In this document: piece after piece, positions 26,816 through 48,757 of the stretch
Layout of the letters: every line of letters begins with the position of its first letter
Numbering within the stretch: position 1 is the stretch's first letter
Source of the DNA: Patescibacteria group bacterium
GTDB taxonomy: Bacteria; Patescibacteriota; Microgenomatia; UBA8517
Assembly (NCBI GenBank): GCA_022868165.1
Contig: JALHYA010000017.1
Coordinates: 11,634 to 75,633 of the forward strand
Reading direction: 5' to 3'
DNA length: 64,000 nucleotides
Made by a program: the position numbers and the translations under genes
Notes under the pieces: model-generated
What the model was told of the DNA's origin: nothing
The model's input: only the letters and a program-made list of their open reading frames with translations
Database searches by the model: none

Positions 26816-26820
26816 AAGTT

Positions 26821-27019: not shown

Positions 27020-27056
27020 ATCGAGGCTATATTATATCAGAAAGAGGCTATTGAAG

Positions 27057-27908: not shown

Positions 27909-27922
27909 CGGGCTTTATACTA

Positions 27923-30588: not shown

Positions 30589-30595
30589 ATAAAAT

Positions 30596-31144
30596 TCATT
30601 TTAACACCTTTGGGGGCCACGAAGTTTCGGCAGTTTTCTCCCTGGAGTTTGCTTCTCTCGCCAACATGAAGAGGAGGTCACTTAGGCGGTTAAGAAAAAC
30701 CAAAACCGAGGGATTCACTTTTTCCTCTTTCGAAAGCGTAACCACCATTCTCTCTGCCCTTCTTGACACAGACCGCGCCAGATGAAAATTTGCGGACAAA
30801 ATGCTTCCTCCCGGAAGAATAAAATGTCCCAAAACCGGAAGTTTTCCCTCCAAATAATCAATTTTCTTCTCCAGATATTTCACTTTTGAGGCCGAAAATC
30901 TTTTGTTGGCTCCCGCCAAAATTGCTCCGATTGTAAATAGGTCGCTCTGGATTTTTTGAATAAACTTTTTGCCGGAGCCGTCTTTTTCCAAAGAAGCGCA
31001 AATTCCCAAAACGCTATTAAGTTCATCGATGGAGCCGATTGAATGGACTGTCAAAGAGTCTTTTGAAATGCGGATTTTTTGAGAAGACTCTTTGTCGTAA
31101 AGAGAAGTTTCACCTTTATCCCCCCTCCTGGTATAAATAGCCAT
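30596..31144 (-). CDS. ATP:cob(I)alamin adenosyltransferase, PduO-type
   Basis: N-terminal MAIYTRRGDKGETSL signature of PduO/MMAB family. Confidence 0.8.
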   Translation of the reverse strand: MAIYTRRGDKGETSLYDKESSQKIRISKDSLTVHSIGSIDELNSVLGICASLEKDGSGKKFIQKIQSDLFTIGAILAGANKRFSASKVKYLEKKIDYLEGKLPVLGHFILPGGSILSANFHLARSVSRRAERMVVTLSKEEKVNPSVLVFLNRLSDLLFMLAREANSREKTAETSWPPKVLK

Positions 31145-31377
31145 TATTCTTTCTTCATAAAAACAAATCGAGGAACCTTCTGTCCGTTAATCTCCACCTC
31201 TTCAGTAAACATATTTTTGGGTCTAACCCAAAGCTTTGAATCGGGATTATCGTAAAGAGCCTCATAGACTACTAACTCTTCCGATGTTTCACTGTGTTTG
31301 GCCACACCGATAACTCTATAAAAATTTCCAGTTTTTGAATGTTTATAAATTCCCGGTTCTATATTCTCTTTCGACAT
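31144..31377 (-). CDS. DUF1653 domain protein
   Basis: YKHSKTGNFYRVIGVAKHSETSEELVVY matches the DUF1653 core pattern. Confidence 0.65.
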   Translation of the reverse strand: MSKENIEPGIYKHSKTGNFYRVIGVAKHSETSEELVVYEALYDNPDSKLWVRPKNMFTEEVEINGQKVPRFVFMKKE

Positions 31378-31464
31378 CTCGCGCTATTTTAACCCGCGAG
31401 GCAACCTTTTTGAAGAAGCTGTTAAAGAGTTGCGAGCGCGAGGAAATTTTTCGACAAAGCTCGC

Positions 31465-33984
31465 CTAGCATTCACTGTGGCCACAGGAGTAGCATTTTGC
31501 GCAGCCTTCTTCATAAACCAGCGCACTGGCTCCGCATGAGGGGCAGATATCACCTATTGCCATGTGTGCCTCGGAAAAAGCGGAAGCTGGAGCCGGTATG
31601 GGGTCAGAAGTTTGACTCCGGACAGGAGTTTGGTGTCCCGTCCCATTTGGGGCGGGACCATTCGCCACCACAACAGCCCCAGCTTCTTCAATGTGAGTAA
31701 CGCTGTTCGTTGCCGCATCGCCATTTGTTGCAACTCCATTTCCTTCTACTAAAGCTGCGAAACCGTTAATTTTAAAGTCGTAGTGGATAGAAAGAGCCGC
31801 CGCAATTGCATCCGGAAGTGAGCGGATTTTGTTGGGCCCAAATCCTACCGAGCGTCTTCCTCCAATTCCCGAGAGCTGTCTAGCAATTTCTCTGGCCCGT
31901 TCTTTGGAATTTAGATGACCCCTAAAGCGAAGTGCGGTTGAAATTGTTCTACCCAAAGCCTCGGCCATTGCCGCAACATCGCTTCCGGCCTTGCCTACAT
32001 TGATAAAAACTTCCAAAGGCATGTTGTCGGTAGTTTCGTTGATTGTCACAAACGCGCTGCCTACCGGCGTTGCGAGTCTGTATGTTGCTCCCTTAGCAAC
32101 CATAGGTCTTTCAATCAGCGTTGTCGCGTTATCCATGATAACCGGCTGCGGCGTTTCTTTGGCTTCTTCTTTTTTCTGGGGGACCGTTTCCAAAACCCCG
32201 GGACGGGAACCGGCTCTCATAAAAGTTACTCCCTTACAACCCAACTCATATGCCAAGTTATAAAGCTTCTTTACGTCATCAACACTAAAGCTTGCCGGAG
32301 CGTTAACGGTCTTGGAAATAGAAGCATCAACATATTTTTGAATCGCCGCCTGAACTTTTACATGGTCTTCGGGAGTAAGATCCTGGGCTGTAACAAAATA
32401 TTGCGGAGGAGTTTCTTCGGGATGCTCATTCTTCCAAGAATCATAAAGCGAATGATAGATTCTATGCTCTCCAAGCCTGTCTCTTCTTATAAACGAAAAC
32501 TCATAAACCGGCTCAATCCCAGAAGTTACGCCGGCCATAAGCGAGGTCGATCCGGTAGGCGCCTGCATAAGGATTACAGAATTCCTGGTCCCGTTTTTCT
32601 TGACTTTCTTCAAAAGCTCTTGAGGCAATTGGCCCACAAAATAGCTTTTGGTATATTTTTCGGGGTCAAATTTCGGAAACGCGCCTTTTTCGTGTGCAAT
32701 ATCGCTTGATGCGCCGTAAGCCGTATCCCTTATTAATTTATAAATTTTCTCAATAACTTTTATGGACTCTTCGCTTCCATAGCGGATTTTCATCCGAATC
32801 AACGCATCTCCCAGACCCATCGTTCCCAATCCAATCCTTCTCTCCCCCTCAAGCTGTGTCTTTTTAATTCCGTCAAAAATATAGATATCGGAATCGATAA
32901 CATTATCCAAGAACCTCACGGCAATCCTGACATGCTCGGCCAAAGAGTTGTAGTCAAAACTGCCGTCTTCTTTAACAAAAGGAACCAAATTTAGGGAGCC
33001 CAGATTGCAAACTCCATAGGCAGGAAGGCCTTCCTCCCCGCAGGGGTTAACGCAGTTAATTTTATTGAAGTAATAATTGTTGTGCCATTTGTTGTATCTT
33101 TCCATAAATACAACGCCGGGTTCGGCGGATGTCCAAGCCGCCTGTGCAATCATGTCCCAGAGCTCCCTGGCCTTAATTGTTTTGTAAATTTTTATTTTTC
33201 CGCCGGCTTCAAGCCAATTTTCCAAAATGCCATCCCATTTTTCGTCGTATATCGGGTCATCCAAATCGGGGAAAATTAGCGGCCAGTCTTCGTTTTTCTT
33301 GACCGCTTCCATAAACCTGTCCGAAACGCAAACAGAAAGGTTGGCGCCATTAATTTTACTCAAGTCCTTCTTTATGGTGATTAACTCTTCAATATCGGGG
33401 TGCCAGTCCCAAAGCATAAGCATGAGTGCTCCCCGCCTGGTTCCCCCTTGCTGGATAATATCGTGGGTGGCAACCGAATAAAGTTCTGCCCAATTAAGAG
33501 GTCCCGAAGAAAATCCGTTGACTTTCTTGACCCTGGCGCCCTTTGGTCGCAGGGATGAAAGGTTTATTCCGACCCCACCCCCGCGACTCATAATTTCAAC
33601 CATCTCCTTGAGGTTATCCAAAATTCCGTCCCTTGAATCCTTTGGACTCGGAAGAACATAACAGTTGTAGTAAGTTACGGCAAAACCGGTGCCGGCACCG
33701 GAAAGAATTCTTCCTCCGGGAACAAATTTGAACTCATCCAAAGCTTTGTAGAATTTTTCTTCCCACTCTTTTTTCTTTTTGCCGGTTTTTTCAATCTGCG
33801 CGACTCCCCTGGCTACTCTTCTCCACATTTGCTCGGGATAATCTTCCAGTGGACTGCCGGCTTCGTCTTTGAGGGAATATCTGTCTATAAAAACTTCGCG
33901 CCTTATTCCTTCAAGCACTGTTCCGTTTTCGACAGGCTCCGGCATCACCCTGAGAAGTTTTTGTGTAGTATTTTTCTTTTGCAT
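31465..33984 (-). CDS. nrdJ: ribonucleoside-diphosphate/triphosphate reductase, class II (adenosylcobalamin-dependent)
   Basis: RNR class II core motifs. C-terminal CPSCG...CAKCYSCGHSEC zinc ribbon. Follows nrdR directly. Confidence 0.9.
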   Translation of the reverse strand: MQKKNTTQKLLRVMPEPVENGTVLEGIRREVFIDRYSLKDEAGSPLEDYPEQMWRRVARGVAQIEKTGKKKKEWEEKFYKALDEFKFVPGGRILSGAGTGFAVTYYNCYVLPSPKDSRDGILDNLKEMVEIMSRGGGVGINLSSLRPKGARVKKVNGFSSGPLNWAELYSVATHDIIQQGGTRRGALMLMLWDWHPDIEELITIKKDLSKINGANLSVCVSDRFMEAVKKNEDWPLIFPDLDDPIYDEKWDGILENWLEAGGKIKIYKTIKARELWDMIAQAAWTSAEPGVVFMERYNKWHNNYYFNKINCVNPCGEEGLPAYGVCNLGSLNLVPFVKEDGSFDYNSLAEHVRIAVRFLDNVIDSDIYIFDGIKKTQLEGERRIGLGTMGLGDALIRMKIRYGSEESIKVIEKIYKLIRDTAYGASSDIAHEKGAFPKFDPEKYTKSYFVGQLPQELLKKVKKNGTRNSVILMQAPTGSTSLMAGVTSGIEPVYEFSFIRRDRLGEHRIYHSLYDSWKNEHPEETPPQYFVTAQDLTPEDHVKVQAAIQKYVDASISKTVNAPASFSVDDVKKLYNLAYELGCKGVTFMRAGSRPGVLETVPQKKEEAKETPQPVIMDNATTLIERPMVAKGATYRLATPVGSAFVTINETTDNMPLEVFINVGKAGSDVAAMAEALGRTISTALRFRGHLNSKERAREIARQLSGIGGRRSVGFGPNKIRSLPDAIAAALSIHYDFKINGFAALVEGNGVATNGDAATNSVTHIEEAGAVVVANGPAPNGTGHQTPVRSQTSDPIPAPASAFSEAHMAIGDICPSCGASALVYEEGCAKCYSCGHSEC

Positions 33985-34431
33985 TTATTTTCTGTCTTCA
34001 ATTGCCTTTTCAAAATCGCTCAAGTCCTCAAATTCCAGGTAAACACTTGCAAATCTCAACCATGCCACCTTGTCAATCTTCCTTAAACGCTTAAGAACCG
34101 CATTTCCTATCATTCTTGAAGGAATTTCTTCCTTCTCACTTCTTAGCATTTCCCTCTCTACATCCCCCACCAAATCTTCTACTAAATCCAAAGAAACCGG
34201 CCTCTTTTCTATGGCTCTTAAAACTCCCCGTTTTATTTTTTCTCTGTCAAAAGGCTCTCGTCTGCCTTCTTTTTTAACCACCCATAAAACCGAACCTTTG
34301 ACTCTTTCGACCGTTGTAAATCTCTTCCCACATTTGGCACATTCCCTGCGTCTTCTTATCCCTTCGCCGTCATCCGTTACTCTTGACTCGAGAACCTGAG
34401 TATCACTGCCTCCGCAGAATGGACATTTCAT
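33985..34431 (-). CDS. nrdR: transcriptional repressor NrdR
   Basis: MKCPFCGG...ECAKCGKRFTT zinc ribbon plus ATP-cone. Start trimmed to MKCPFCG. Confidence 0.9.
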   Translation of the reverse strand: MKCPFCGGSDTQVLESRVTDDGEGIRRRRECAKCGKRFTTVERVKGSVLWVVKKEGRREPFDREKIKRGVLRAIEKRPVSLDLVEDLVGDVEREMLRSEKEEIPSRMIGNAVLKRLRKIDKVAWLRFASVYLEFEDLSDFEKAIEDRK

Positions 34432-34478
34432 ATATGAAAACAAAAAACGCTATCGGCAGTAACGAGGTCAATAATCTA

Positions 34479-34494
34479 ACACTAGATATAGCCA
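34479..34494. promoter_or_regulatory. candidate NrdR box (ACACTAGATATAGCCA)
   Basis: 12/16 match to the NrdR-box palindrome acaCwAtATaTwGtgt, upstream of the nrdR-nrdJ operon. A second box was not convincingly found. Confidence 0.3.
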
Positions 34495-34635
34495 GTCAAC
34501 TAGTAAGTTGTATGTCAAAAAATATCATCTCACGCACGCCCCGTGACTGGAGTTTTCACTTTAACCGAAGATTTTCCGCATAACGAAAATGGTGTTAAAT
34601 ATTAATGGTGAAAATTTTTTCGTCGAAAGGTTGGC

Positions 34636-35271
34636 TTATGGTCGTTCGAATGGGTTTTCCGGAACAGGCACTCCCTTGGAATTTAGGGCGTCCCGGGCCT
34701 CTTTGAAAGCGTTTTTGGCATAATCCTCGGACTGAACAATTCCGGGTTTTGCATCTTCCGGAGCAATTTTTAATATCTCTTCCAACACTTCTCTATGTTT
34801 GAGAGCCGCATTGGCCAACTTCTGCCAGAACGGCACCGTATCCAAACCCTTCTTTGTATTCTCTTTCCCTTGGTTCACGGCCATTTCCAGATATTTTTCT
34901 CCTTTGCTTAAAGACGGAAATGCAACCGATGATTTGTTTCTTTCAAATAAAATCTTGCTCGAAGCCAGCCTTTTGTCGGCGAAAAGAAGCATCAAATCCG
35001 CTTTCTTCCCACTATCGGTAGTTATAAAAAGCCAAAGCCTGTCTCTTGCTGCTTTGAGAAGCCAGAAAGGGCTATCCGGGAGTATTGAACCGGGATAAGC
35101 GAGAGAATAATCGATTATGACTGGTTTTTCGTTGGATGGAGTACTTGTCGGTTGTGGAGATGCGGGGAGAGCAAATGCGTACTTAATTGATGCGGTTTTA
35201 AGAACAGAAATAAAAAGAATTAAGGACGCCACCGAAAACGCACAACAAATATATGCAATCCGCCTAAACAT
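34636..35271 (-). CDS. hypothetical secreted/membrane-anchored protein (211 aa)
   Basis: N-terminal hydrophobic segment. No family recognised. Confidence 0.45.
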   Translation of the reverse strand: MFRRIAYICCAFSVASLILFISVLKTASIKYAFALPASPQPTSTPSNEKPVIIDYSLAYPGSILPDSPFWLLKAARDRLWLFITTDSGKKADLMLLFADKRLASSKILFERNKSSVAFPSLSKGEKYLEMAVNQGKENTKKGLDTVPFWQKLANAALKHREVLEEILKIAPEDAKPGIVQSEDYAKNAFKEARDALNSKGVPVPENPFERP

Positions 35272-35337
35272 TAGGGTAAGGATAATAGTACTTCTCTTTC
35301 AAAAGCTAGTCAAGCTCGAAGGTTGAGTTTCCAGTCT

Positions 35338-35364
35338 CCATTCCCAAAGGACATGAAGGAAGAT
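35338..35364. repeat. 27-bp direct repeat copy 1 (CCATTCCCAAAGGACATGAAGGAAGAT), duplicate of the CPBP gene 3' end
   Basis: Matches 35627-35654 at 27/28 positions. Confidence 0.6.
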
Positions 35365-35605
35365 AAGCAAAGCTTGCGACTTAGTCTAAAGCAAAGCTTG
35401 CTGCTTCGCAGTAAGAAGTATTTTAAGCTTAATCTTGATTCCGAGGGAACCATTTTTAAAAATGTGTCGAACCAGCCCCAAGAAAGACAAACGATTCTGG
35501 TAAAAGTTCTCTGGCTGGTGAGACGCAAGCGAGGAGCGGAGTCTACAAAATAAGCTCAATTATACTCGACGAGAGTTTTTTAAAAATGCGTTTCCGAAGG
35601 AATCT

Positions 35606-36247
35606 TTATCTAAACAAAATAATGGGCCATTCCCAAAGAACATGAAGGAAGATTGAAGAGAAAACATTCTTTGTCCGGGCAAAAACAAAAGCCGAACCCA
35701 ATCCAAAAAGAGCAGTGATAAGTAGATTTACCATTGTTGCCGAAGCGCCCAACTGCAGAACAAAAATGTAAATCGGAACGTGTATTAGAACCCAAACAAG
35801 AGTTGTTATTACATTGGCGAGCCATTCATTTTTCAGAGCAAGCCACAACCTGTTAAACATATATCCCCTAAACGCAATCTCCTCACTCACGGCTGTTGCA
35901 AACGATATTCCCAAAGCCATAGGAAGCGTCTTGTCTCCAATATTTGCCGCAAAACTTAGGCCGTTGTGCTTAATAAAATTGATAATCAGCGCCTCCATCA
36001 CAAAAAACGAACCCAGGGCCAGAGAAAAATAAACGGAGGGGAAGAGGTTTTTGACTGTTATCCCCAAAGAATCCAAACCCAAGCCCTCTTTTTTGATAAT
36101 TACAAAAACCGGTATCAACCAAATAATGGGTTTTACAACCAACTCCTCTACTTCATCGGGTAGTTGTATTAAAAACCTGTAAAGTCCCCAGACTATCAAA
36201 AGATATGTTGCGTAAACCGTCGCTGTTTTTAAATAATTTTCTTTCAT
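35606..36247 (-). CDS. CPBP family intramembrane glutamic endopeptidase (CAAX protease/Abi-like)
   Basis: EEIAFRGYMFNRL motif 1. Multiple TM. Conserved His in the downstream TM. Confidence 0.75.
   Translation of the reverse strand: MKENYLKTATVYATYLLIVWGLYRFLIQLPDEVEELVVKPIIWLIPVFVIIKKEGLGLDSLGITVKNLFPSVYFSLALGSFFVMEALIINFIKHNGLSFAANIGDKTLPMALGISFATAVSEEIAFRGYMFNRLWLALKNEWLANVITTLVWVLIHVPIYIFVLQLGASATMVNLLITALFGLGSAFVFARTKNVFSSIFLHVLWEWPIILFR
35627..35654. repeat. 27-bp direct repeat copy 2 (overlaps the CPBP stop region)
   Basis: Matches 35338-35364. Confidence 0.6.
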
Positions 36248-36729
36248 TGCCCTTTCATTTTACATTCTTTATATGCTAGGCCGATGGCTTTGATAACCAT
36301 ATCTACTCTTTCTTTCGCCTCGGTGACACTCAGAGCATTCTTTTCGTTGGGAAACCAATGGAAAACCAAATTTCTGCAATTTTTCCAAGTGTCCCAAAGG
36401 GTATCCGCAAGCATGTTTGTCCCGGTAAAAGCGACCAGTTTGTCGTAGACGCTCTCGCTCCTGAAACTTTTTTCCAGAGAAGGATTTAAAGCTTTCCCGA
36501 TCCTAAAATGCTTTCCGTAGTAATCCTGGGGGGTGATAAACTCCAAATCCAAAAACAATTTTTTCAAAAATCCTTCGTAGGCTTTGGCTGCAGGAAAAAC
36601 CACAAAAGCATAGTCATGGAAATCCTCCTTGCCGTAATATGTTTCGGACAACAAAACCGCCTCATTTAGAAGCTTCTGAAGATCTTCTCCCAGGTAATTC
36701 CACCAGACCTCTTTCGACAGCTCACCCAT
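36244..36729 (-). CDS. hypothetical protein (161 aa) with R-x4-H (HEPN-like) motif
   Basis: NCRNLVFHW carries an Rx4H motif. Overlaps the CPBP start by 4 bp. Confidence 0.45.
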   Translation of the reverse strand: MGELSKEVWWNYLGEDLQKLLNEAVLLSETYYGKEDFHDYAFVVFPAAKAYEGFLKKLFLDLEFITPQDYYGKHFRIGKALNPSLEKSFRSESVYDKLVAFTGTNMLADTLWDTWKNCRNLVFHWFPNEKNALSVTEAKERVDMVIKAIGLAYKECKMKGQ

Positions 36730-37358
36730 TATTTTATTCCCAAAGTAACCGAAATGGTCAATTTTCCGCTGCTTTCGGCAAGTCCAACAAATCCGCTCGT
36801 TTTGTCCTTCTCAAAAGAAATAGTCTGCATTGCCTCTTGAGCAAGCTCGTTGTCTATCTTCCAACCACCAGCCGTAAGTTTATCTTTATAGAATAATTTT
36901 ACTTGGGTCACCGAGTCCGTCGTTTCCCAAACGACAGAAATTCCCTTGCTGTCTTCTCCGGTGGTTGTCCAAGAGGATGTTAGTTTGGCTCCGGGATAAA
37001 TCGGAAAATCGCTTGGGAAACCATCCGGCAGTTTTCCTTCTGCCGAGTAGGAAAACTGTCCTCCCTTACCGTCGAAGCTAATCTTTTTGCCGTCATTCTC
37101 CACCTTGACGTTTTCTCCTGCTGTCTTGGAAAGGAAAAGTGAGAGAAATTTTGAACTGATTTTCCCCCCTAAGCTTCTCCACAAAACCCGGGCCGCAAAT
37201 CCAACCAAAACCAAAACGGCAAGAACCGATAAGAGAATAATCAGTAGCTTGTTAGACTTTTTCTTGGGCTCTTCCTTTTCTTCTTTTTTATCTTCCAGTT
37301 TATCTTCCAAAAGAAACTCACCTCCTACCAAAAAACAATAGTCCAATAATATTATCAT
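36729..37358 (-). CDS. hypothetical membrane-anchored protein with Lys/Glu-rich N-terminus
   Basis: Start chosen at MIILLDY, which follows a GGGGTTT...AAACCCC hairpin. The list ORF extends to 37397. One TM helix. Confidence 0.45.
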   Translation of the reverse strand: MIILLDYCFLVGGEFLLEDKLEDKKEEKEEPKKKSNKLLIILLSVLAVLVLVGFAARVLWRSLGGKISSKFLSLFLSKTAGENVKVENDGKKISFDGKGGQFSYSAEGKLPDGFPSDFPIYPGAKLTSSWTTTGEDSKGISVVWETTDSVTQVKLFYKDKLTAGGWKIDNELAQEAMQTISFEKDKTSGFVGLAESSGKLTISVTLGIK

Positions 37359-37449
37359 GCGGGGTTTTAAGTCAAACCCCGAAAGCCTGTATGACATCCT
37401 CCCCGCTTTGAAAAGCGGGGTTTCCTCTAAAGGAGAATGACATATCAGC

Positions 37450-37502
37450 GTTCAATTCATCCCCTCGACTACGCTCGGGGTTTTCTTGAATGCTGATATA
37501 AT
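37450..37502 (+). promoter_or_regulatory. conserved leader element GTTCAATTCATCC-hairpin-TTCTTGAAT plus extended -10 (TGATATAAT) upstream of PBP1A-1
   Basis: The same architecture and spacing recurs at 39796-39849 upstream of the second PBP gene. Confidence 0.5.
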
Positions 37503-37508: not shown

Positions 37509-39728
37509 ATGAAAGAAAAACTGCGGCTTGTTTTTGGAAAACTAAGAAAATTTTTTGCGAACGGAAAAAGGATTAAGGCTCTACTTTATTGGGGAGTTGT
37601 AGCCGTGGTCTTGACATGGCTTTTCTGGGGAATACCGCTCCCGACCGCCCTTTCTTCCAAACAAATCCCGGTTTCAACCAAACTTTATGACAGAAACGGA
37701 AAACTGATTTATGAAATATACACCGACAAAAGAAGTACGCCGATTAAACTTTCGGATCTCCCGGCTTATGTCAAAGAGGCCACTATTTCTATAGAAGACA
37801 AAGATTTTTACAAGCATTACGGATTTTCTTTTACCGGCATTGCCCGCGCTGCTTTTAATATAGTTTTTAAAAGAAATCTTCAGGGCGGGTCAACCCTAAC
37901 TCAACAATTGGTCAAAAATGCCCTTCTGTCCCCCGAACGCACGGTCAAGAGAAAAATTCGGGAATTCGTTTTAACAATGTTTGTCGAATCTCTTTACTCA
38001 AAAGACCAAATTCTGGAGATGTATCTAAACCAAATCCCCTACGGTTCAACCGCATACGGAATTGAAGCCGCGAGCGAACTTTATTTCGGAAAACAGGCAA
38101 AGGATTTGACGTTAGCCGAGTCGGCTCTTTTGGCGGGACTACTTTCATCTCCCACGGCATACTCGCCTTTTGGGGCCCACCCGGAGCTTGCCAAGGAAAG
38201 GCAAATAGACGTGCTCAGAAGAATGGTCCAAGACAAATATATCACTCAAGCCCAGGCGGATGAGGCAAAAAATCAGGAATTAAAGTATGCAGAAATTACC
38301 CCTCCTGCCGCTCCCCATTTTGCCCTCTGGATAAAAGAGCAGCTTGCAGAAAAGTACGGAACAAACATTGTCGAACAGGGGGGTTTGAGGGTTACCACTA
38401 CTCTTGATTTGGATTTGCAGGATTTTGCCCAAAAAGCCGTTGCGACCGAGGTTGCTAAACTCAAAGCCCAAAAGGTGGGAAATGGGGCCGTGATTGTTAC
38501 AAGGCCAAAAACCGGAGAGATTTTGGCGATTGTAGGGTCGAAGGATTATTTCGCAACGGATGAGGACGGTAAAGTGAATGTCATCCTATCCAAAAGACAG
38601 CCTGGCTCTTCCATAAAACCCTTAAATTATGCCTTGGCTATAAAAGATAAAAAAATAAATGCAGCCACTCCGCTCGCGGACGTTCCCAGCTGTTTCGCTG
38701 TTATTGGACAACCCATCTATTGCCCCACCAACTACGACGAAAAATTCCATGGAGCGATACAAGCCCGCTTCGCCCTTGGAAATTCTTACAATATACCGGC
38801 CGTTCGTGTTCTTGCCTTAAACGGTCTGGATAATTTTGTCAACTTTGCCAAACAGATGGGAATTACAACCTTTACCGACCCCGCCAATTATGGTCTTTCT
38901 TTAACCCTTGGAGGCGGTGAGGTCCGCCCGTACGATATGGCCGTGGCCTTTGGAGTCTTTGCCAACCAAGGAATCAAACAGCCTCTTATTTCAATACTCC
39001 AAGTAACCGACTGGAGGGGAAAAATTTATGAGGAAACCAAACCTAAAGATGTTGAACTTACGGGCGAGCGTGTTCTTAATCCCGAAGTAACCTTTATTGT
39101 TTCCCACATTCTTTTGGATAATAATGCGCGTTCACAGGCATTTGGCGAAACTTCATATCTCAATGTTGCCGGCCATCCTGAGGTTTCGGTCAAAACCGGA
39201 ACTACCAATGACAGAAAGGATAATTGGACGATAGGATATACCGCGGACGCTGCAGTTGTAGCTTGGGTTGGCAACAACGACAACTCTTCAATGTCTGGGG
39301 CGGTTTCGGGAATTTCGGGTGCTTCTCCTATTTGGAACAGGATAATGAAAGCGGTTTTGGATTCGGCGGAAAAAGGAGCTTACGACAAAGAGGAGGAAGG
39401 ACACGCCTGGCCACACCAACCGTCCGATGTTGTGGGCGCAACAATATGTTCTACGGATGGACTTTTGCCTCCCGGGCCCAAAGACAACCCCGGCTGTCCC
39501 GCACGTTTTGAGTACTTCCTAGAAGGAACCTTGCCGACCCAAACCAGCGGCCAAAAAGCCGATATTCCGATAAACAAGGATGACCATACCGTCTCCGCTC
39601 CCGATACCCCGCCGGACAAGATTGAAACCCAAAACCATCCGGTTTTATATGACCCTCTAAAAACTTTGGTGTGCCTTGACTGTCCGATACCTACAAAAGA
39701 GGTAACAATCAGTTATCCTCTGAGGTAG
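37509..39728 (+). CDS. penicillin-binding protein 1A (bifunctional GT51 transglycosylase/transpeptidase)
   Basis: GT51 motifs EDKDFYKHYG and GGSTLTQQLVKN. Transpeptidase SxxK (SGSSIKP), SxN and KTG (KTGTTND). Confidence 0.9.
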   Translation: MKEKLRLVFGKLRKFFANGKRIKALLYWGVVAVVLTWLFWGIPLPTALSSKQIPVSTKLYDRNGKLIYEIYTDKRSTPIKLSDLPAYVKEATISIEDKDFYKHYGFSFTGIARAAFNIVFKRNLQGGSTLTQQLVKNALLSPERTVKRKIREFVLTMFVESLYSKDQILEMYLNQIPYGSTAYGIEAASELYFGKQAKDLTLAESALLAGLLSSPTAYSPFGAHPELAKERQIDVLRRMVQDKYITQAQADEAKNQELKYAEITPPAAPHFALWIKEQLAEKYGTNIVEQGGLRVTTTLDLDLQDFAQKAVATEVAKLKAQKVGNGAVIVTRPKTGEILAIVGSKDYFATDEDGKVNVILSKRQPGSSIKPLNYALAIKDKKINAATPLADVPSCFAVIGQPIYCPTNYDEKFHGAIQARFALGNSYNIPAVRVLALNGLDNFVNFAKQMGITTFTDPANYGLSLTLGGGEVRPYDMAVAFGVFANQGIKQPLISILQVTDWRGKIYEETKPKDVELTGERVLNPEVTFIVSHILLDNNARSQAFGETSYLNVAGHPEVSVKTGTTNDRKDNWTIGYTADAAVVAWVGNNDNSSMSGAVSGISGASPIWNRIMKAVLDSAEKGAYDKEEEGHAWPHQPSDVVGATICSTDGLLPPGPKDNPGCPARFEYFLEGTLPTQTSGQKADIPINKDDHTVSAPDTPPDKIETQNHPVLYDPLKTLVCLDCPIPTKEVTISYPLR

Positions 39729-39795
39729 ATATGGTAAAATCTTCCGCCGACTAAAGTCGGCGGCACCAGCCCCTAAGGGAAGATTATAGCCCTAG

Positions 39796-39849
39796 GTTCA
39801 ATTCATCCTCGCAATAAATTGCAAGGTCTTCTTGAATCTATGGTAAAAT
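39796..39849 (+). promoter_or_regulatory. conserved leader element GTTCAATTCATCC-hairpin-TTCTTGAAT plus extended -10 (TGGTAAAAT) upstream of PBP1A-2
   Basis: Paralogous to 37450-37502. The inner hairpin sequence differs but stays palindromic (TGCAAT-AA-ATTGCA). GTG start at 39857 lies 7 nt after the -10. Confidence 0.5.
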
Positions 39850-39856
39850 TGCCGCA

Positions 39857-42103
39857 GTGAAAGGCAGGTCTCAAATTTTTACTGCCCTAAGTTTCTTCGC
39901 CAGCGCCCTTAAGTTTGTCGGCCGGCCTTTCTACCTAATCTTCTCTTACGGATTTATTGCTCTGATTTTGGCAATATCCGCCGTCGGTATTTTGATAAAA
40001 GCCATTCTCTCCTTTCCAATAAGGCTTCTCCCGAAAATCCCTCTGAAAATCAAGTTTAAGTTCCGTCCCAAATTATTAACGACGTCTGTTTTGGGGCTGG
40101 CAATAATTCTTTCGATTTGGTTCTTTGTTTTCCGCAACCTTCCCTCTCCCAAAGAGCTTGTTAGCCGCAATCTGGAAGTTTCCACAAAGATTTATGACCG
40201 AAACGGGATCCTTTTGTATAAAATCTACAAAAATAAAAATCGCACGGTTGTCCCTTTATATAGGATTCCTCAAAACGTAAGGCTGGCCACTTTGGCTGCC
40301 GAGGACGCCGAGTTTTATAGCCATCCAGGAATATCAATTCGCGGGATAATCCGCTCTATTGTTACAAACTTGAAGCAAGGAGAACTAACCGGAGGCTCAA
40401 CAATTACCCAGCAGCTTGTTAAAAATGCGCTTCTTTCGCCGGAAAAGACTTTTCGACGGAAACTTCGCGAAGTAATTCTTGCATTCGAAGTCGAACTTGT
40501 ATACTCAAAAGACCAAATTTTGGAAATGTATCTGAATGAAGTTTCCTATGGCGGAACCGCGTACGGAATTCAAGAAGCCGCCCAGCTTTATTTCGATAAA
40601 GATGTAGAAAATCTGGATTTGGCCGAAGCCGGGCTTCTGGCCGGACTTCCAATAAGTCCGACAAAATATTCTCCGTTCGGATCAGAACCCGACCTGGCAC
40701 TCGTTCGCCAGAAAGAAGTGCTGGAACTTATGCGCATCAACAAATACATTACCCAAAGGGAAATGGAGGAAGCCGAAAACGAACCCGTCAGCTTTGCCCC
40801 AAACAGAACGGATATCAAAGCTCCCCATTTTGTAATGTAAGTTAAAGAGCAATTGGTTGATAAATATGGTGAAGAAATGGTTCAGCAGGGAGGACTCAAT
40901 GTCATAACTACTCTTGATTATTCTATACAAAGATTGGCGGAAGATGCGGTAAAAAACGAAGTCGCCAGCCTTCAAGCGCTACATGTAGGAAACGGGGCGG
41001 CGTTGGTTTTAAACCCGAGAACAGGAGAGGTTCTTGCAATGGTAGGCTCCAAAAATTATTTTGATACCGAAGGAGGAGGAAACGTAAACGTAACCCTGCG
41101 CCCTCGCCAGCCCGGCTCTTCAATAAAAATCGTCAACTATGCCTATGCTCTTTCCACTAGTTACACCCCGTCATCGATTCTTTCGGATACTCCCGTCACT
41201 TTTTCAACCGGAGGACTTGCCCCTTACACCCCCAAAAACTATGACGGCAAATACCGGGGGAATCTTACCCTTAGAAGTGCTTTTGCGGAATCCAGAAACG
41301 TCCCTGCCGTAAAGGTTCTCGCATCTTACGGTGTAAGCCACATGATTGACCTTGGAACCAAAATGGGCATTACAACTTGGACCGAACCATCTAACTACGG
41401 ACTATCTCTCACTCTCGGTGGTGGTGAAGTGAAACTTTTGGATTTGGCACGGGTATTCGGGACAATTGCCGATTACGGCAAAAAACCTCCGATTTTTTCA
41501 ATTATTAAGGTAACCGACTATAAAGGAAAGGTTTTGGAAGAAAATAAGTGTTTAACCGAAGAGCCGTGCGAAGGTCCCGAAGTCGTTGACCCAAGGGTTG
41601 CGTTTCTCTTAACAGACATCCTCAAAGATAACAGTGCCAGAACCCCCGCTTTTGGTTCAAATTCCGCATTGGCTATTGCCGGCCATCCCGAAGTTGCAGT
41701 CAAGACCGGAACCAGCAATGATTTAAAGGACAATCTGACCCTCGGTTTTACCCAAAAATACCTTGTTGCAACTTGGGTAGGAAATAACGACTCAAGTCCC
41801 ATGTCAAAAATTGCCTCGGGCATAACAGGCGCGGCACCAATCTGGCATACAATTATGGCAAGCCTTCTTTCCAATGAAAAACCCGACCCCTGGCTGGTCC
41901 CGGACGGGGTTGCCAAGCTTTCGATTTGCACACTGACCGGAACTTTGGCCTGCGAAGAATGCAATTCTTATTCCGAATGGTTTCTGAAGGAAAAAGCCCC
42001 GACGAGGGCGTGTACAAAAGAAGCCATAACAAAGATTAAGGACGAGAAAAAGACCCAAGGCAAAATTCTAGAACCCGCAGCGAAAATTGAGGTTGTTAAC
42101 TAA
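39857..42103 (+). pseudogene. second PBP1A paralog interrupted by an in-frame TAA (40838-40840) at a conserved Trp position; list ORFs 39857-40840 and 40853-42103 are in the same frame
   Basis: APHFVM*VKEQL aligns to APHFALWIKEQL of PBP1A-1. GT51 motifs are intact in part 1. SxxK (SGSSIKI) and KTG (KTGTSND) are intact in part 2. GTG start. Confidence 0.7.
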
Positions 42104-42761
42104 GCTCTTTGTAGAGAAGATAGAACGGAATCAGAAAAAATGGTCCCATAAAAATCGCAAAAACCGGTCCGACGTAAGGAATGTTGGCAAAAACCATCTG
42201 AATCAGAATGTAGATAAGTAAAAATACCGAGAATCTTCCCAATATCGGCCAAAATCTTCCTTTAGTCAGCGCCTTGCTTTTTGCCAAAGATTCCTTAACC
42301 GAAGTTCCTTTTGAAATTTGTATAAAAAGCGAAAAGGAAAACCAAATTCCGAAAATTATTCCTGGAATTATAAGAAGGACAAATCCTAAAGCCATAATCA
42401 GTCCTCTGGCCAAACTTACAAGAAAGAAGCACCAGGTCTTTTTCCATGAAGTTAAAAGAGTCTCCTTTACTACAAGGGTTCTGCCCTCAACAGCTCTGAT
42501 TACCGCTTCATAGGTAGCTGCTTGAAACCAAATACCGATGATGGCAAGCGGGATTGCCGAGGCCACCAAGGGCAATATAAAAGCAGGTTGTCTCGCAGCA
42601 TTCGAGCCGGTTCCTTTTGCAACCACAAAAAATATGCTCGTAGCAATTGATAAAACCAAAAACAGCAAACCGAGTTTTAGGAAATAAATCAAATTTTTCT
42701 TCTCAAAATAAATTTTGAATGCTTCCCTAATATATAAAACCGGTGACGAAAGTTTTTTCAT
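42096..42761 (-). CDS. hypothetical polytopic membrane protein
   Basis: At least 5 TM segments. No family recognised. Confidence 0.5.
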   Translation of the reverse strand: MKKLSSPVLYIREAFKIYFEKKNLIYFLKLGLLFLVLSIATSIFFVVAKGTGSNAARQPAFILPLVASAIPLAIIGIWFQAATYEAVIRAVEGRTLVVKETLLTSWKKTWCFFLVSLARGLIMALGFVLLIIPGIIFGIWFSFSLFIQISKGTSVKESLAKSKALTKGRFWPILGRFSVFLLIYILIQMVFANIPYVGPVFAIFMGPFFLIPFYLLYKELS

Positions 42762-43813
42762 TTTGTCATCCCGTCATAAACGACTTTTGAAATCTCCGAA
42801 ATTGCCGTTTGTGCTTCGCCCAAGTCCGCATCTTTGCTCATAATTACCAAAATATATGGCTTGTCGGCAAAGATAATTCCGGCGTCGTTTACTACCGAAT
42901 CAATCATACCGTATTTGTGGGAAACTCTTACCTGTTTGGGCACTCCTTGGGGAATTAAATCCTCGCGAACGGTGTTGGTAAGAAAATCCAATATCTCTGT
43001 CTTGTATTTTTCCGATACAATCTCATCCCGCCATAGTTTTTTGAAAAAAATCCCAACATCTTTCGGGGTCGTTTGGTTTTCGCTAAACGATGTATTTTCC
43101 ATGCCTATTTCTTTTGTGACTCTTTCAATCTTTTCCACCCCTCCGACTTCGTTTTGTGCTATATAAAGTGCGGTATTATCCGAACCGTTTCCCATTAAAC
43201 GGGCCAGTTCTTCGAGCGTTATAACGGTTCCCTCCGGCTTTTGGGAAAGCTCTCCTGCCCCACCTTGTTTGTCCGAATTAACCAAAGTGTGGGTAGTACT
43301 TAAATCCAAACTTCCATTTTCAACTTCCTTGAAAATCGTTGCCAAAACTTGAAGTTTGTTGAAAGATGCCGACTGAAAAATTTCGCCTTCTCTTTCGCCA
43401 AAGCCAAAGCCGTTTGATAAATCGATAACATAAAAACCGTAAGTTCCAGAAAGTTTGGAGATTTTCTCTTCGAAAGCCAATTTTATTTTGTCGGCTTTAT
43501 CTCTTTGTTCTTTTGTCCCTTCAATTGTGATGGTCCCGCTTCCCCACTCGGGTAGAGAGATTTTTGGAAATTTAGGCAAGGTAAAACCCTCGGAAGAAAT
43601 TGTGAGAAAAGCCGCAACAGAAGCGGTTACCAATAAAGTTGAAAGAACAATTATTCTTTCTTTTCTGCCCCACGGCTTAAGGGGTTCTTTTCTTTTCTTT
43701 TTGTTCTCCGGCCTTAAATCCTTAAAGGATTTCCTTGAAGAACTTTTTTCCTCCAACTCGTCTTCCTCTAAGTCTTCCTCTTCTTCGCTTTTTTTCCTTC
43801 TAAAAAATGGCAT
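42758..43813 (-). CDS. serine hydrolase, class A beta-lactamase / PBP-like, with charged N-terminal extension and TM anchor
   Basis: SFNK (SxxK) and GSDN (SDN) motifs. KYG in place of KTG. Confidence 0.6.
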   Translation of the reverse strand: MPFFRRKKSEEEEDLEEDELEEKSSSRKSFKDLRPENKKKRKEPLKPWGRKERIIVLSTLLVTASVAAFLTISSEGFTLPKFPKISLPEWGSGTITIEGTKEQRDKADKIKLAFEEKISKLSGTYGFYVIDLSNGFGFGEREGEIFQSASFNKLQVLATIFKEVENGSLDLSTTHTLVNSDKQGGAGELSQKPEGTVITLEELARLMGNGSDNTALYIAQNEVGGVEKIERVTKEIGMENTSFSENQTTPKDVGIFFKKLWRDEIVSEKYKTEILDFLTNTVREDLIPQGVPKQVRVSHKYGMIDSVVNDAGIIFADKPYILVIMSKDADLGEAQTAISEISKVVYDGMTK

Positions 43814-45889: not shown

Positions 45890-46898
45890 TTTCCATCTCC
45901 TCCAAATACTGCCCCTGAGAAGCCAAACTATTTAGCTTAGCCCGTTTATATAAAGCAGACTGGACTGCTTTTCCGTTCTCCACCTCGTTTTTCCAAATCT
46001 CCATTGCTGGACCTTCAAGCCCGCGCTCGAATGAGAAACTTACTTTCCAAGGCAAATCTTTCGTTTTACAAATCTCATTTAGCCTTGCCGTTGCAAGGAT
46101 CACATCCTGACCTCCGGAAAGAAAAACAATACCAGGAACTTCTTTCGGAACCGTCTTAAGAAGGGTTCGAATTGTCATCTGGGCTACTTCTTCTAAACCA
46201 GCCTGGGTCTGACACTTGTATCCGGACAAAACCATATTGGGTTTAAGAATTATTCCTTCCAGAGCTACTTTTTGCTCTTTGAGTTGGGCAAAAACATTCA
46301 AAAGAACAGCGGTAGTGATTTCCTCTGACTTTTCAATTGTGTGTTCCCCATCCATCAAGACTTCGGGTTCAACTATTGGAACCAATCCCTGCTCCTGGCA
46401 AAATTTTGCATAACTGGCCAACCTCTGAGCATTTGGCTCGATACACCTCTGGGATGGTATTCCATCCCCGATGCTGATTACCGCTCTCCATTTGGCAAAT
46501 TTTGCTCCCATTTGTTTGTACTCGGCAAGCCTTTCACTCAAGCCTTCAAGTCCTTCTGTTACCTTTTCCTCCGGAGAGCCTTCAAGCTCCACAGTTCCTT
46601 TGTCGACTTTGATTCCGGGAACAATTCCCTGTTTTTGTAATAGATCGACAAAACCGATTCCCTCTGAAGTTCTTTGTCTGATGGTTTCGTCGTAAAGAAT
46701 TACCCCCGAAATAAATTCTCCCAAACCTGGGGTACTAATAAGAACTTCCCTAAACATCGTGCGCGTTTCAAGCGTTGGAGTAATTCCAGCCGCTGTCAAT
46801 CTCTTATCCATTGTTGGAGTTGAGGCATCGGTCGCCCAAATTCCCTTTCCGGGTGCCACCAATTCTTTGGCGGTAGATTCAAGATCATTCTCAGCCAT
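45879..46898 (-). CDS. fba: fructose-bisphosphate aldolase, class I (eukaryotic type)
   Basis: APGKGIWATDASTPTMDKRL matches PGKGILAADESTGSIAKRL. Schiff-base lysine region IKVDKG. LSERLAEYKQMGAKFAKWR. Confidence 0.8.
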   Translation of the reverse strand: MAENDLESTAKELVAPGKGIWATDASTPTMDKRLTAAGITPTLETRTMFREVLISTPGLGEFISGVILYDETIRQRTSEGIGFVDLLQKQGIVPGIKVDKGTVELEGSPEEKVTEGLEGLSERLAEYKQMGAKFAKWRAVISIGDGIPSQRCIEPNAQRLASYAKFCQEQGLVPIVEPEVLMDGEHTIEKSEEITTAVLLNVFAQLKEQKVALEGIILKPNMVLSGYKCQTQAGLEEVAQMTIRTLLKTVPKEVPGIVFLSGGQDVILATARLNEICKTKDLPWKVSFSFERGLEGPAMEIWKNEVENGKAVQSALYKRAKLNSLASQGQYLEEMENEL

Positions 46899-47961
46899 TT
46901 TTTTCCTTTTTAACTATTACTCTTTTGACCGCTTCAACAATACTTTTGGATTTCATTCCGTATTTTTCCAGAAGCTCGTCGGGCGCACCCGATTCGCCAA
47001 AATGGTCCGGCATTCCGACAAATTCCATTGGAGTCGGGTAATTTCTGGCCAATGTTTCTGCCACTGCGCCACCCAATCCGCCGGTAATTTGATGCTCTTC
47101 AACCGTAACGACCGCTCCGGTAGTTTTTGCTGCTCGGATTATTGCTTGCTCGTCTAAGGGTTTAAGCGTATGGGAATTGAGCACCAAAACATCGATTCCT
47201 TTCTTTTCCAGCTCTTTTGCCGCCAATAGGGCTTCATAAACTAAGGGTCCGCAGGCGACTATGGCGACTAACGGATCGCCATGTCGTCCTGAGATTGTCG
47301 AAGGACCCCATAGAACTTCTGCACGACCGATCTTAAAAGGAGTATCTTCGGTTGTAAAAACGGGGGATTTTTCGCGGGCAAAGCGAATATAAACAGGGTG
47401 TTCGGTTTTGGCCGCCGCCACGGTTGCCTTCTTGGCCTCGAGACTGTCGCAAGGAGCAATAACCGTCATGTTGGGCATTGCCCGCATCAAAGCCATATCC
47501 TCAAGCATCTGGTGTGTGGCTCCGTCGGGCCCGACGGATATGCCGGCATGTGCTCCGGCAATCTTTACCGGCACATCGTTTAAGGCAATTGTGGTTCTAA
47601 TTTGTTCCCAATTTCTTCCGGGAGAAAAAGCGGCGTAACTACTTATAAAAGGAATTTTGCCGTAATTTGCCATTCCCGCGGCAATTGTAGCGAGAGCTTG
47701 CTCGGCAACTCCAACCTCAATAAATCTCTCGGGGAAACGCTCCTTAAAAAGAATCGAGCGGGTACTCTCGGTCACGTCCGCGCACAAAACTACAACTCTT
47801 TCGTCCTTCTCCCCCACCGCCACCAACCCTTCCCCATATCCCTGCCGGGTGGGAATCATTTCTATATCCTTCTGGAAAATCTTTTTGGATAGTTTCGCTT
47901 CCTTATTAATCATTTTCGCTTTTGATTTTTCCTCCCAACGTTCTGAGCTCTCTAAGGGCAA
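46891..47961 (-). CDS. transketolase, C-terminal (pyrimidine-binding) subunit
   Basis: Split-transketolase B subunit pattern. Follows the A subunit with overlap. Confidence 0.85.
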   Translation of the reverse strand: MPLESSERWEEKSKAKMINKEAKLSKKIFQKDIEMIPTRQGYGEGLVAVGEKDERVVVLCADVTESTRSILFKERFPERFIEVGVAEQALATIAAGMANYGKIPFISSYAAFSPGRNWEQIRTTIALNDVPVKIAGAHAGISVGPDGATHQMLEDMALMRAMPNMTVIAPCDSLEAKKATVAAAKTEHPVYIRFAREKSPVFTTEDTPFKIGRAEVLWGPSTISGRHGDPLVAIVACGPLVYEALLAAKELEKKGIDVLVLNSHTLKPLDEQAIIRAAKTTGAVVTVEEHQITGGLGGAVAETLARNYPTPMEFVGMPDHFGESGAPDELLEKYGMKSKSIVEAVKRVIVKKEKNG

Positions 47962-48757
47962 TCTTTGCCTCCTCGGCTGTGGGAGGCTTACCGTGCCATT
48001 CAGGAAGGTTTTCCATAAAAGAAACCCCTTTGCCCGGAATTGTGTGGGCGATAATTACGGTTGGATTCTCATAAACTGCGCGGGCTTGTTCGACCGCATC
48101 GATAATTTGCTCGATATTGTGACCGTCGACTTCTATCACTGTCCAATTAAACGCTCTATATTTATCAACCAGAGGCTCAAGCGGCATCACATCTTCGGTG
48201 TGGCCGTCTATTTGGATATTGTTTCTATCAACTATTACGGTGAGATTTGAAAGGTTATATTTACCGGCAAAAAATACGGCCTCCCAGTGGTTTCCTTCGT
48301 CGTGTTCCCCGTCGGAACAGATACAAAACACTCTGAATCTTTTTCCGTCCATACGCGCAGCGTATGCATAACCCGAGGCTTGAGCCAAACCGCTGCCCAA
48401 AGGACCGGAAGTTGTTTCGACCCCGGGAAGCCTTAGCCTTTCGGGATGTCCTTGAAGTCTGGTTCCAAGATGACGCAGAGTTTTGAGTTCTGAAATCGGA
48501 AAATATCCCGCATGCGCCATTGTGGCGTAGCGCACCGGACAAATATGCCCGTTTGAAAGAATTAATCTGTCTCTATCTTCCCAAAAAGGATTTTTGGGGT
48601 CATGGTTCATAATCGCGAAGTATAGGGCGGTGAAAATATCTGCCGTTCCCAAAGGCCCTGCGGAGTGGCCGCTTCCGGCGGCCACGAGCATTTTTATTAT
48701 GTCCTTGCGGATATCATTGGCCTTCTTTTGAAGCTTTTCGATTGTATATTTGGGCAT
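47906..48757 (-). CDS. transketolase, N-terminal (TPP-binding) subunit
   Basis: GSGHSAGPLGTADI and GDGE TPP-binding motifs. Confidence 0.85.
   Translation of the reverse strand: MPKYTIEKLQKKANDIRKDIIKMLVAAGSGHSAGPLGTADIFTALYFAIMNHDPKNPFWEDRDRLILSNGHICPVRYATMAHAGYFPISELKTLRHLGTRLQGHPERLRLPGVETTSGPLGSGLAQASGYAYAARMDGKRFRVFCICSDGEHDEGNHWEAVFFAGKYNLSNLTVIVDRNNIQIDGHTEDVMPLEPLVDKYRAFNWTVIEVDGHNIEQIIDAVEQARAVYENPTVIIAHTIPGKGVSFMENLPEWHGKPPTAEEAKIALRELRTLGGKIKSEND

What the first reader, a model, noticed from the sequence alone, without database searches (positions are those of the whole stretch)
37509..42103. Tandem PBP1A paralogs; the second carries an in-frame TAA exactly at a conserved Trp codon but is otherwise intact
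Both list ORFs of the second paralog are in the same frame, separated only by TAA at 40838-40840. The alignment APHFVM*VKEQL versus APHFALWIKEQL places the stop on the conserved Trp. All catalytic motifs (GT51, SxxK, SxN, KTG) are intact on both sides. The gene keeps its own conserved promoter element. This fits one of three things: a very recent nonsense mutation, a sequencing or assembly error (a 2-nt change from TGG), or programmed readthrough or recoding.
Basis: seen in the sequence. Interest (0 to 1): 0.55.

Follow-up and report, generated by a model that had tools for sequence, protein, structure and literature searches.

The report
One-base nonsense variant in PBP1A paralog
The second of two neighbouring cell-wall synthase genes in this uncultured Woesebacteria genome is cut by a stop codon that differs by one base from the tyrosine codon found in a near-identical assembly and in all relatives, so it is an ordinary recent mutation or assembly error, not recoding.

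Summary
Two class A PBP genes sit in tandem (37509-39728 and 39857-42103), and the second is one reading frame broken only by TAA at 40838-40840.

The interpretation needs correcting. The stop does not sit on a conserved Trp. Trp occurs only in the upstream paralog (48% identical). In 120 orthologs the column is Tyr 87, Phe 17, Ser 12 and never Trp.

An independent assembly (Logan, SRR19116065) matches the window over about 56.6 kb, with 7 substitutions and no indels. It reads TAC (Tyr) at this codon and encodes an intact 748-aa protein. The lesion is therefore a single C-to-A change.

A related strain (93% nt identity), seen in five contigs, also has TAC. dN/dS is about 0.1 on both sides of the stop, the same as for paralog 1.

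TAA is the commonest genuine terminator in the window. No other gene in the 64 kb is split by a stop, and the window holds no suppressor tRNA.

The source MAG (NCBI, locus tag MUP46_04125) annotates two fragments, of 327 and 408 aa.

Verdict: a very recent strain-level nonsense allele (about 0.6) or a consensus artefact (about 0.35). Programmed readthrough or recoding is effectively excluded. Interest is low.

The parts
37509..39728 (+). Paralog 1: intact class A penicillin-binding protein (739 aa; GT51 + transpeptidase). NCBI MCJ7805794.1.
   Evidence: ORF; translation; Pfam PF00912 + PF00905; exact protein in NCBI and Logan.
39857..40837 (+). Paralog 2, N-terminal part (327 codons): two hydrophobic segments plus a complete GT51 glycosyltransferase domain (aa 119-292). 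Motifs: EDAEFYSHPG 40301-40330, GGSTITQQ 40391-40414, RKLRE 40457-40471. Annotated separately as MCJ7805795.1.
   Evidence: Solved isolated GT domains and monofunctional glycosyltransferases align to residues 124-308.
40838..40840 (+). In-frame TAA, codon 328 of paralog 2. The near-identical Logan assembly and the related strain have TAC (Tyr); only base 40840 differs (A here, C there).
   Evidence: Ortholog column Y87/F17/S12.
40841..42103 (+). Paralog 2, C-terminal part (420 codons + TAA terminator): transpeptidase domain with SSIK 41117-41128, SRN about 41291-41299 and KTGT 41702-41713. It has no hydrophobic or signal segment of its own. NCBI calls a 408-aa 'hypothetical protein' from ATG 40877 (MCJ7805796.1).
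37442..37499 (+). Hairpin-forming element upstream of paralog 1: 14-bp outer stem, internal loops, inner hairpin followed by a U-rich run. The 3' arm overlaps a TATAAT hexamer (37496-37501). A 19-codon uORF (ATG 37437, preceded by AAGGAG) runs across it.
   Evidence: Sequence; fold -25.8 kcal/mol, z -7.3; pattern match; model R1.
39789..39844 (+). Second copy of the same element, upstream of paralog 2. The core is the same (GTTCAATTCATCC ... TCTTGAAT). The stem sequences differ, with 6 compensatory pairs in the outer stem and 1 in the inner stem.
   Evidence: Sequence; fold -20.2 kcal/mol, z -4.1; pair counts; model R1.

Best explanation
Paralog 2 is a normal, selectively maintained bifunctional class A PBP of a Woesebacteria-like (Microgenomates, Patescibacteria) genome. 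In the haplotype captured by this MAG, a single C-to-A transversion at the third base of a conserved tyrosine codon (TAC to TAA, base 40840) created a premature stop in the linker just after the GT51 domain.

Shown: the change is one base, it is absent from a 99.99%-identical assembly and from all relatives, and the gene shows no other decay.

Inferred: it is a real, very recent strain-level or minority allele rather than an error. The MAG haplotype also carries five synonymous transition differences from the other assembly. At the two of those five that could be polarised with an outgroup, the MAG allele is the derived one, which is the signature of genuine divergence.

Inferred consequence: translation ends at codon 327. 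The product would be a membrane-anchored protein carrying only GT51, resembling a monofunctional glycosyltransferase. The transpeptidase part has no anchor or signal sequence and no obvious ribosome-binding site, so it would be lost. The intact paralog 1 next door would cover the bifunctional activity. Ordinary near-cognate misreading of UAA could give only trace full-length protein.
For: - Single in-frame TAA.
- The Logan contig SRR19116065_18863 is identical over 23,705 bp except for 3 substitutions, one of which is 40840 C/A, giving TAC and an intact 748-aa gene.
- Over about 56.6 kb of comparison there are 7 substitutions and 0 indels. Five are synonymous transitions.
- The outgroup strain carries the Logan alleles at 35206, 35224 and 40840, so the window haplotype is the derived one.
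- Orthologs have Tyr, Phe or Ser at the column and never a stop. The related strain has TAC in 5 contigs.
- dN/dS against the 93% strain is 0.10 for the N part and 0.11 for the C part, against 0.09-0.10 for paralog 1.
- All catalytic motifs are intact.
- The truncated products exist only as this MAG's NCBI entries.
- The C fragment has no hydrophobic segment.
Against: - No reads were available, so the allele cannot be told apart from a consensus error.
- Both non-synonymous differences between the two assemblies are C (Logan) to A (window) transversions. That is also the signature of oxidative damage artefacts in sequencing libraries. All five transitions are synonymous.
- The TAA allele is seen in no second sample.
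- The fates proposed for the two protein fragments are inference only.
Confidence: 0.6

Rival explanations
1. Assembly or sequencing artefact. The organism has TAC, and the A at 40840 is a consensus error (low coverage, an oxidised-guanine library artefact, or a wrongly resolved strain bubble). On this reading the gene is intact in vivo.
For: - An independent assembly of near-identical DNA reads C.
- The only two non-synonymous differences between the assemblies are both C to A in the window, the classic in-vitro damage direction. The other five differences are synonymous transitions.
- The gene is otherwise perfect and under purifying selection.
- The TAA allele was found in no other sample.
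Against: - Substitution errors in short-read consensus are rare relative to the 7 differences seen.
- There are no indels in 56.6 kb, and no other broken genes in 64 kb, so the assembly looks clean.
- The MAG haplotype carries clearly biological (synonymous, derived) differences. It is therefore a slightly different strain, which can have its own mutations.
Confidence: 0.35
2. Programmed stop-codon readthrough or TAA recoding (a suppressor tRNA or an altered genetic code) yields a full-length PBP, possibly together with a short GT-only isoform.
For: - The frame is intact on both sides and all motifs are preserved.
- The stop lies in the interdomain linker, a place where two isoforms could make sense.
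Against: - The stop is absent from a 99.99%-identical genome, from the 93% strain and from 120 orthologs, so there has been no time or conservation for a recoding signal to evolve.
- TAA terminates 30 of 59 other long ORFs in the window.
- No other gene in 64 kb carries an internal stop.
- No tRNA with a UUA anticodon was found in the window.
- The only stop reassignment reported in this phylum is UGA to Gly, in the Gracilibacteria/JAEDAM01 lineage (PMC13293708).
Confidence: 0.02
3. Old pseudogene: paralog 2 is redundant with paralog 1 and is decaying under relaxed selection.
For: - A tandem paralog exists that could make paralog 2 dispensable.
Against: - dN/dS is 0.12, equal to that of paralog 1, on both sides of the stop.
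- There is a single lesion only.
- The tandem pair is conserved intact in relatives at 93%, 77% and 64% identity.
- A near-identical genome has the intact gene.
Confidence: 0.02

Closest known systems
Class A (bifunctional) penicillin-binding proteins, PBP1A/PBP1B type (solved examples: Pseudomonas aeruginosa PBP1a 4oon, Acinetobacter baumannii PBP1a 3udf, E. coli PBP1b 5fgz)
   Same: N-terminal membrane anchor, GT51 domain with its catalytic motifs, linker, and transpeptidase domain with SxxK / SxN / KTG. There are strong sequence matches to solved PBP1A structures.
   Different: In this MAG the reading frame of paralog 2 is cut by one TAA in the linker. Paralog 2 and its orthologs have two N-terminal hydrophobic segments rather than one. 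The gene is one of a tandem pair that is conserved in Woesebacteria.
Monofunctional peptidoglycan glycosyltransferases (MGT/MtgA; e.g. S. aureus MGT 3vmq, 3hzs)
   Same: If the allele is real, the 327-aa product would be a membrane anchor plus GT51 only. This is the architecture of an MGT, and MGT structures align to residues 125-306.
   Different: It would have arisen by truncation of a bifunctional gene one mutation ago. It is not a separately evolved gene, and no evidence shows that it is expressed or functional.
Stop-codon reassignment in Patescibacteria (UGA to Gly, translation table 25, Gracilibacteria/SR1/JAEDAM01)
   Same: Same phylum, and an in-frame stop at a position where relatives have a sense codon.
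   Different: That case involves UGA, affects the whole genome, depends on a dedicated tRNA-Gly(UCA) and is restricted to that lineage (PMC13293708). Here there is a single TAA in one gene of a Microgenomates-type genome in which TAA is the main terminator.

Membership tests
Class A penicillin-binding protein (GT51 + transpeptidase) | GT51 glycosyltransferase domain with the catalytic Glu motif (EDxxFxxHxG), GxSTxTQQ and RKxxE | tested here: met
   PF00912 E=1.4e-59 (paralog 2 N part) and 9.1e-61 (paralog 1). Motifs located.
Class A penicillin-binding protein (GT51 + transpeptidase) | Transpeptidase domain with SxxK, SxN and KTG | tested here: met
   PF00905 E=4.6e-18 (paralog 2 C part) and 1.1e-17 (paralog 1). 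SSIK, SRN/SYN and KTGT seen. Matches to solved PBP1A structures.
Class A penicillin-binding protein (GT51 + transpeptidase) | Both domains in one uninterrupted polypeptide behind an N-terminal membrane anchor | tested here: not met
   Paralog 2 in the window is interrupted by TAA at codon 328. The condition is met by paralog 1 and by the Logan allele of paralog 2 (748 aa). Hydrophobic N-terminal segments are present.
Programmed readthrough / stop-codon recoding | The stop codon is conserved at the site in orthologs | tested here: not met
   No stop among the 120 orthologs. TAC in the near-identical assembly and in the 93% strain.
Programmed readthrough / stop-codon recoding | For a code change: the codon appears in-frame in many genes and is not used as a terminator | tested here: not met
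   TAA ends 30 of 59 other long ORFs. The only stop splitting a gene in 64 kb is this one.
Programmed readthrough / stop-codon recoding | A cognate suppressor tRNA or a dedicated recoding signal | tested here: inconclusive
   The window has no tRNA with a UUA anticodon (3 tRNAs: Met, Met, Ile-UAU). The rest of the genome could not be searched. The flanks are identical to those of the TAC allele, so no allele-specific signal exists.
Decaying pseudogene | Relaxed selection (dN/dS near 1) and multiple disabling lesions | tested here: not met
   dN/dS is 0.12 overall, 0.10 for the N part and 0.11 for the C part. There is one lesion only.

The most novel reading that the evidence does not exclude
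The TAA allele is real and is maintained in part of the population because it is useful. Either it converts a bifunctional PBP into a GT-only enzyme while paralog 1 supplies transpeptidation, or low-level UAA misreading yields a regulated mixture of short and full-length forms. That would be a natural example of domain uncoupling of a class A PBP in a reduced-genome episymbiont.
Probability: 0.04. Interest if true: 0.35.

Novelty: already known. Interest (0 to 1): 0.08.

Why it matters
It matters little for biology. A one-base nonsense variant, or a consensus error, in one MAG is routine.

Its practical value is for annotation. MCJ7805795.1 (327 aa) and MCJ7805796.1 (408 aa, 'hypothetical protein') are two halves of one PBP1A gene, and the site should be checked against reads. 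It also removes a candidate case of TAA recoding in Patescibacteria.

The conserved tandem PBP1A pair, and the lineage-specific hairpin element in front of both genes, are the only items here that might merit further study.

Tried and rejected
- I looked for the window's own contig in the gene-position index with three of its proteins. The 327-aa fragment and the upstream 222-aa gene are not on record, so no sample accession for the MAG was obtained.
- An exact-pattern scan of GTDB representative genomes found nothing. A protein-based scan returned only relatives at 63% identity or less, so the species has no representative there.
- The JGI metagenome scan found only the 93% strain, with TAC.
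- A literature search for the run, the locus tag and the protein accession gave only unrelated hits.
- Rfam has no family for the upstream element. The best match was HgcC on the opposite strand, at 28 bits against a gathering score of 50.
- A simple regular-expression search for TTCA..TTGAA in distant loci was pure noise.
- A covariance model built from the two element copies found no further copies in the window or in 15 related loci.
- Other ORF pairs in the same frame separated by one stop (Fpg/RecF-like, NAD(P)HX dehydratase/Fic, NrdR/RNR) are distinct genes, not split ones.
- The overlapping ORFs at 9441-10572 are two different genes (Pth and PCMT), not a frameshift.
- I considered selenocysteine and pyrrolysine and rejected them from general knowledge: they use UGA and UAG, not UAA.
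Full report
**1. The observation**

The ORF list shows 37509..39728 (+, 739 aa), 39857..40840 (+, 327 aa) and 40853..42103 (+, 416 aa). Translating 39728-42103 in one frame gives a continuous protein with a single '*' in ...NRTDIKAPHFVM*VKEQLVDKYGEE... The stop is TAA at 40838-40840.

Pfam assigns the domains as follows:
- Paralog 1: Transgly (PF00912) + Transpeptidase (PF00905).
- Paralog 2, part before the stop: Transgly.
- Paralog 2, part after the stop: Transpeptidase.

The catalytic motifs are all present:
- GT51 motifs: EDAEFYSHPG, GGSTITQQ, RKLRE.
- Transpeptidase motifs: SSIK, SRN, KTGT.

The two paralogs are 48% identical over 688 residues. Paralog 2 matches solved PBP1A structures, e.g. 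4oon at E=1.7e-83. Residue 328 lies just after the region covered by isolated GT51 domains and monofunctional glycosyltransferases (residues 124-308), so it is in the interdomain linker. The physical description in the finding is therefore correct.

**2. Where the window comes from**

Exact-sequence look-ups place the fragments in an NCBI MAG named 'Patescibacteria group bacterium', on a contig of 92,447 bp:
- MCJ7805794.1: paralog 1.
- MCJ7805795.1: 327 aa, 'transglycosylase domain-containing protein'.
- MCJ7805796.1: 408 aa, 'hypothetical protein MUP46_04125', starting at ATG 40877.

The closest named homologs are Candidatus Woesebacteria / Microgenomates. The species has no representative in the GTDB collection.

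**3. The decisive comparison**

The same locus was assembled independently by Logan from run SRR19116065. Contig _18863 (23,705 bp) corresponds to window 37440-61144 and differs at only three bases. One of them is 40840, A in the window and C in Logan. That turns TAA into TAC (Tyr) and gives an uninterrupted 748-aa gene.

Extending the comparison with contig _25216 covers window 4304-25368 and 25606-37443 and adds four more differences. Over about 56.6 kb there are 7 substitutions and no indels:

| Window position | Type | Effect |
|---|---|---|
| 9903 | transition | synonymous |
| 13490 | transition | synonymous |
| 35206 | transition | synonymous |
| 35224 | transition | synonymous |
| 45897 | transition | synonymous |
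| 47294 | C (Logan) to A (window) | Ser to Ile, in an indel-variable loop of the transketolase C subunit |
| 40840 | C (Logan) to A (window) | Tyr to stop |

**4. What relatives have at the site**

Among the 120 best homologs, the column under the stop is Tyr 87, Phe 17, Ser 12 and four singletons. None has Trp. The flanking residues (IKAPHFVM_V) are nearly invariant.

A strain with 93% nucleotide identity, recovered in five contigs from ENA, Logan and JGI, has TAC in every case.

The ancestral codon is TAC, one step from TAA. The outgroup strain also carries the Logan alleles at 35206 and 35224, so the MAG haplotype is the derived one at those sites.

**5. Selection**

Nei-Gojobori dN/dS between the window and the 93% strain:

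| Gene or part | dN/dS |
|---|---|
| Paralog 2, whole | 0.116 |
| Paralog 2, before the stop | 0.10 |
| Paralog 2, after the stop | 0.11 |
| Paralog 1 | 0.09-0.10 |

The tandem pair is intact, and embedded in the same gene neighbourhood, in relatives whose paralog 2 is 77% (L089) and 64% (L091) identical. That neighbourhood comprises AF_1845-like, HEPN RNase-LS-like, Rce1-like and DUF5667 genes upstream, and a beta-lactamase-family gene downstream (preceded in the window, L004 and L089 by a UPF0259 gene that L091 lacks). Paralog 2 is thus a long-maintained functional gene, not an old pseudogene. The lesion is younger than the 0.01% divergence between the two assemblies.

**6. Recoding and readthrough**

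- In a greedy non-overlapping set of 60 ORFs of 120 aa or more, the stop codons are TAA 31, TGA 19 and TAG 10. Leaving out the internal stop itself, TAA ends 30 of 59 ORFs, so it is the main genuine terminator.
- I scanned all six frames for stops flanked by open stretches of 80 codons or more. The only case on a coding strand where one gene is split is 40838. The other same-frame neighbours are different genes: Fpg / RecF-like, NAD(P)HX dehydratase / Fic, and NrdR / ribonucleotide reductase.
- The window encodes three tRNAs (Met, Met, Ile-UAU), none of which can read UAA.
- The flanks of the TAA and TAC alleles are identical, so no allele-specific recoding signal can exist.
- The only stop reassignment reported in this phylum is UGA to Gly, in the Gracilibacteria/JAEDAM01 lineage (PMC13293708).

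Programmed readthrough or an altered code is effectively excluded.

**7. Real allele or artefact?**

The tools cannot settle this because no reads are available.

For a real allele:
- The MAG differs from the Logan consensus by five synonymous transitions, two of which are demonstrably derived. That is the footprint of genuine, selection-filtered divergence, so the MAG represents a slightly different haplotype that can carry its own new mutations.
- Two non-synonymous changes out of seven fit the long-term dN/dS.
- The assembly shows no indels and no other broken genes.

For an artefact:
- Both non-synonymous differences are C to A in the window, the direction of oxidative library damage.
- The allele is seen nowhere else.

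I weigh these at roughly 0.6 real and 0.35 artefact.

**8. Consequence if real (inference)**

The 327-aa product keeps the hydrophobic N-terminal segments and the whole GT51 domain. It would resemble a monofunctional glycosyltransferase.

The transpeptidase part has no hydrophobic or signal segment and no evident ribosome-binding site before ATG 40877. It would not reach the periplasmic side.

Paralog 1 remains intact. From general knowledge, near-cognate misreading of UAA is rare and could give only traces of full-length protein.

**9. The 'conserved promoter element'**

Both genes are preceded by a shared element, found at only these two places in 64 kb:
- TTCAATTCATCC - hairpin - T(T/C)TTCTTGAAT.

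As RNA on the + strand, each copy folds into a long outer stem, internal loops and an inner hairpin followed by a U-rich run. The energies are -25.8 kcal/mol (z -7.3) and -20.2 kcal/mol (z -4.1).

Between the two copies, 7 of 18 pairs change on both sides while staying paired. Sliding the 3' partners by 1-3 columns drops pairing from 92% to between 28% and 42%. The G·U pairs work only on the gene strand.

The consensus promoter scan reports no sigma-70-type match at either element. The TATAAT and TGGTAAAAT hexamers overlap the 3' arm. Short uORFs cross both copies.

The element is unchanged in the 93% strain. It is absent in front of the PBP genes of the 77% and 64% relatives, where paralog 2 follows paralog 1 by only 22-29 nt. 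A covariance model finds no further copies, and Rfam has no match.

It is therefore a lineage-specific structured element of unknown role (leader/attenuator, operator or small palindromic insertion). It is not a demonstrated promoter, and it has no bearing on the stop codon.

**10. Verdict**

The feature is real in the sequence but ordinary. It is a single-base TAC to TAA change in one MAG, either a very recent nonsense allele or a consensus error. It is not at a Trp codon, it is not recoding, and the gene is not a decaying pseudogene. Novelty: already known kind of event. Interest: low.

Noticed in passing
window 37442-37499 and 39789-39844 (+): A roughly 58-nt hairpin-forming element sits directly upstream of both PBP1A paralogs. 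The two copies share a core (GTTCAATTCATCC...TCTTGAAT) and have compensatory stem changes (7 of 18 pairs). The G·U pairs work only on the gene strand, and a U-rich run follows the inner hairpin. Short uORFs run across both copies: ATG 37437 preceded by AAGGAG, and ATG 39839 whose TGA overlaps the GTG start of paralog 2. The element is present in the 93% strain and absent in the 77% and 64% relatives. It has no Rfam match and no other copy in 64 kb.
   Followed up: partly
window 37440-37443: The independent Logan assembly breaks exactly at the 5' foot of the upstream hairpin element. Contig _25216 ends at 37443 and contig _18863 starts at 37440.
   Followed up: no
window 26899-26972 (-), with 25949-26815 (+): tRNA-Ile with anticodon UAU, which is unusual in bacteria since most use a modified CAU. 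It lies next to a phage-integrase-family gene, so an integrated element may be nearby. Two tRNA-Met(CAT) genes lie at 25013-25087 and 25358-25428; the second was not reported by Rfam at its gathering score.
   Followed up: no
window 36244-37397 (-); L004, L089, L091: A gene pair, HEPN RNase-LS-like (161 aa) and AF_1845-like (222 aa), lies divergently upstream of the PBP pair. It resembles a toxin-antitoxin pair and is syntenic in the relatives that cover this side (L004, L005, L089, L091, L092).
   Followed up: no
window 39857-40150 (paralog 2, aa 1-100): Paralog 2 and its orthologs carry an N-terminal extension with two hydrophobic segments (about aa 24-58 and 73-97), whereas paralog 1 has one. 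This raises a topology question for a protein with a periplasmic GT51 domain.
   Followed up: no
window 42096-43813 (-): A UPF0259-like membrane protein and a beta-lactamase-family (PF13354) gene lie immediately downstream of the PBP pair. The beta-lactamase-family gene is conserved there in the relatives that reach this side; the UPF0259 gene is present in L004-L007 and L089 but missing in L091/L092. The stop of paralog 2 overlaps the end of the convergent UPF0259 gene by 8 nt.
   Followed up: no
window 46891-48757 (-): Transketolase is encoded as separate N-terminal and C-terminal subunit genes that overlap by 56 nt. One of the two non-synonymous differences from the Logan assembly (47294, Ser/Ile) lies in a loop of the C subunit that is deleted in the 93% strain.
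   Followed up: partly
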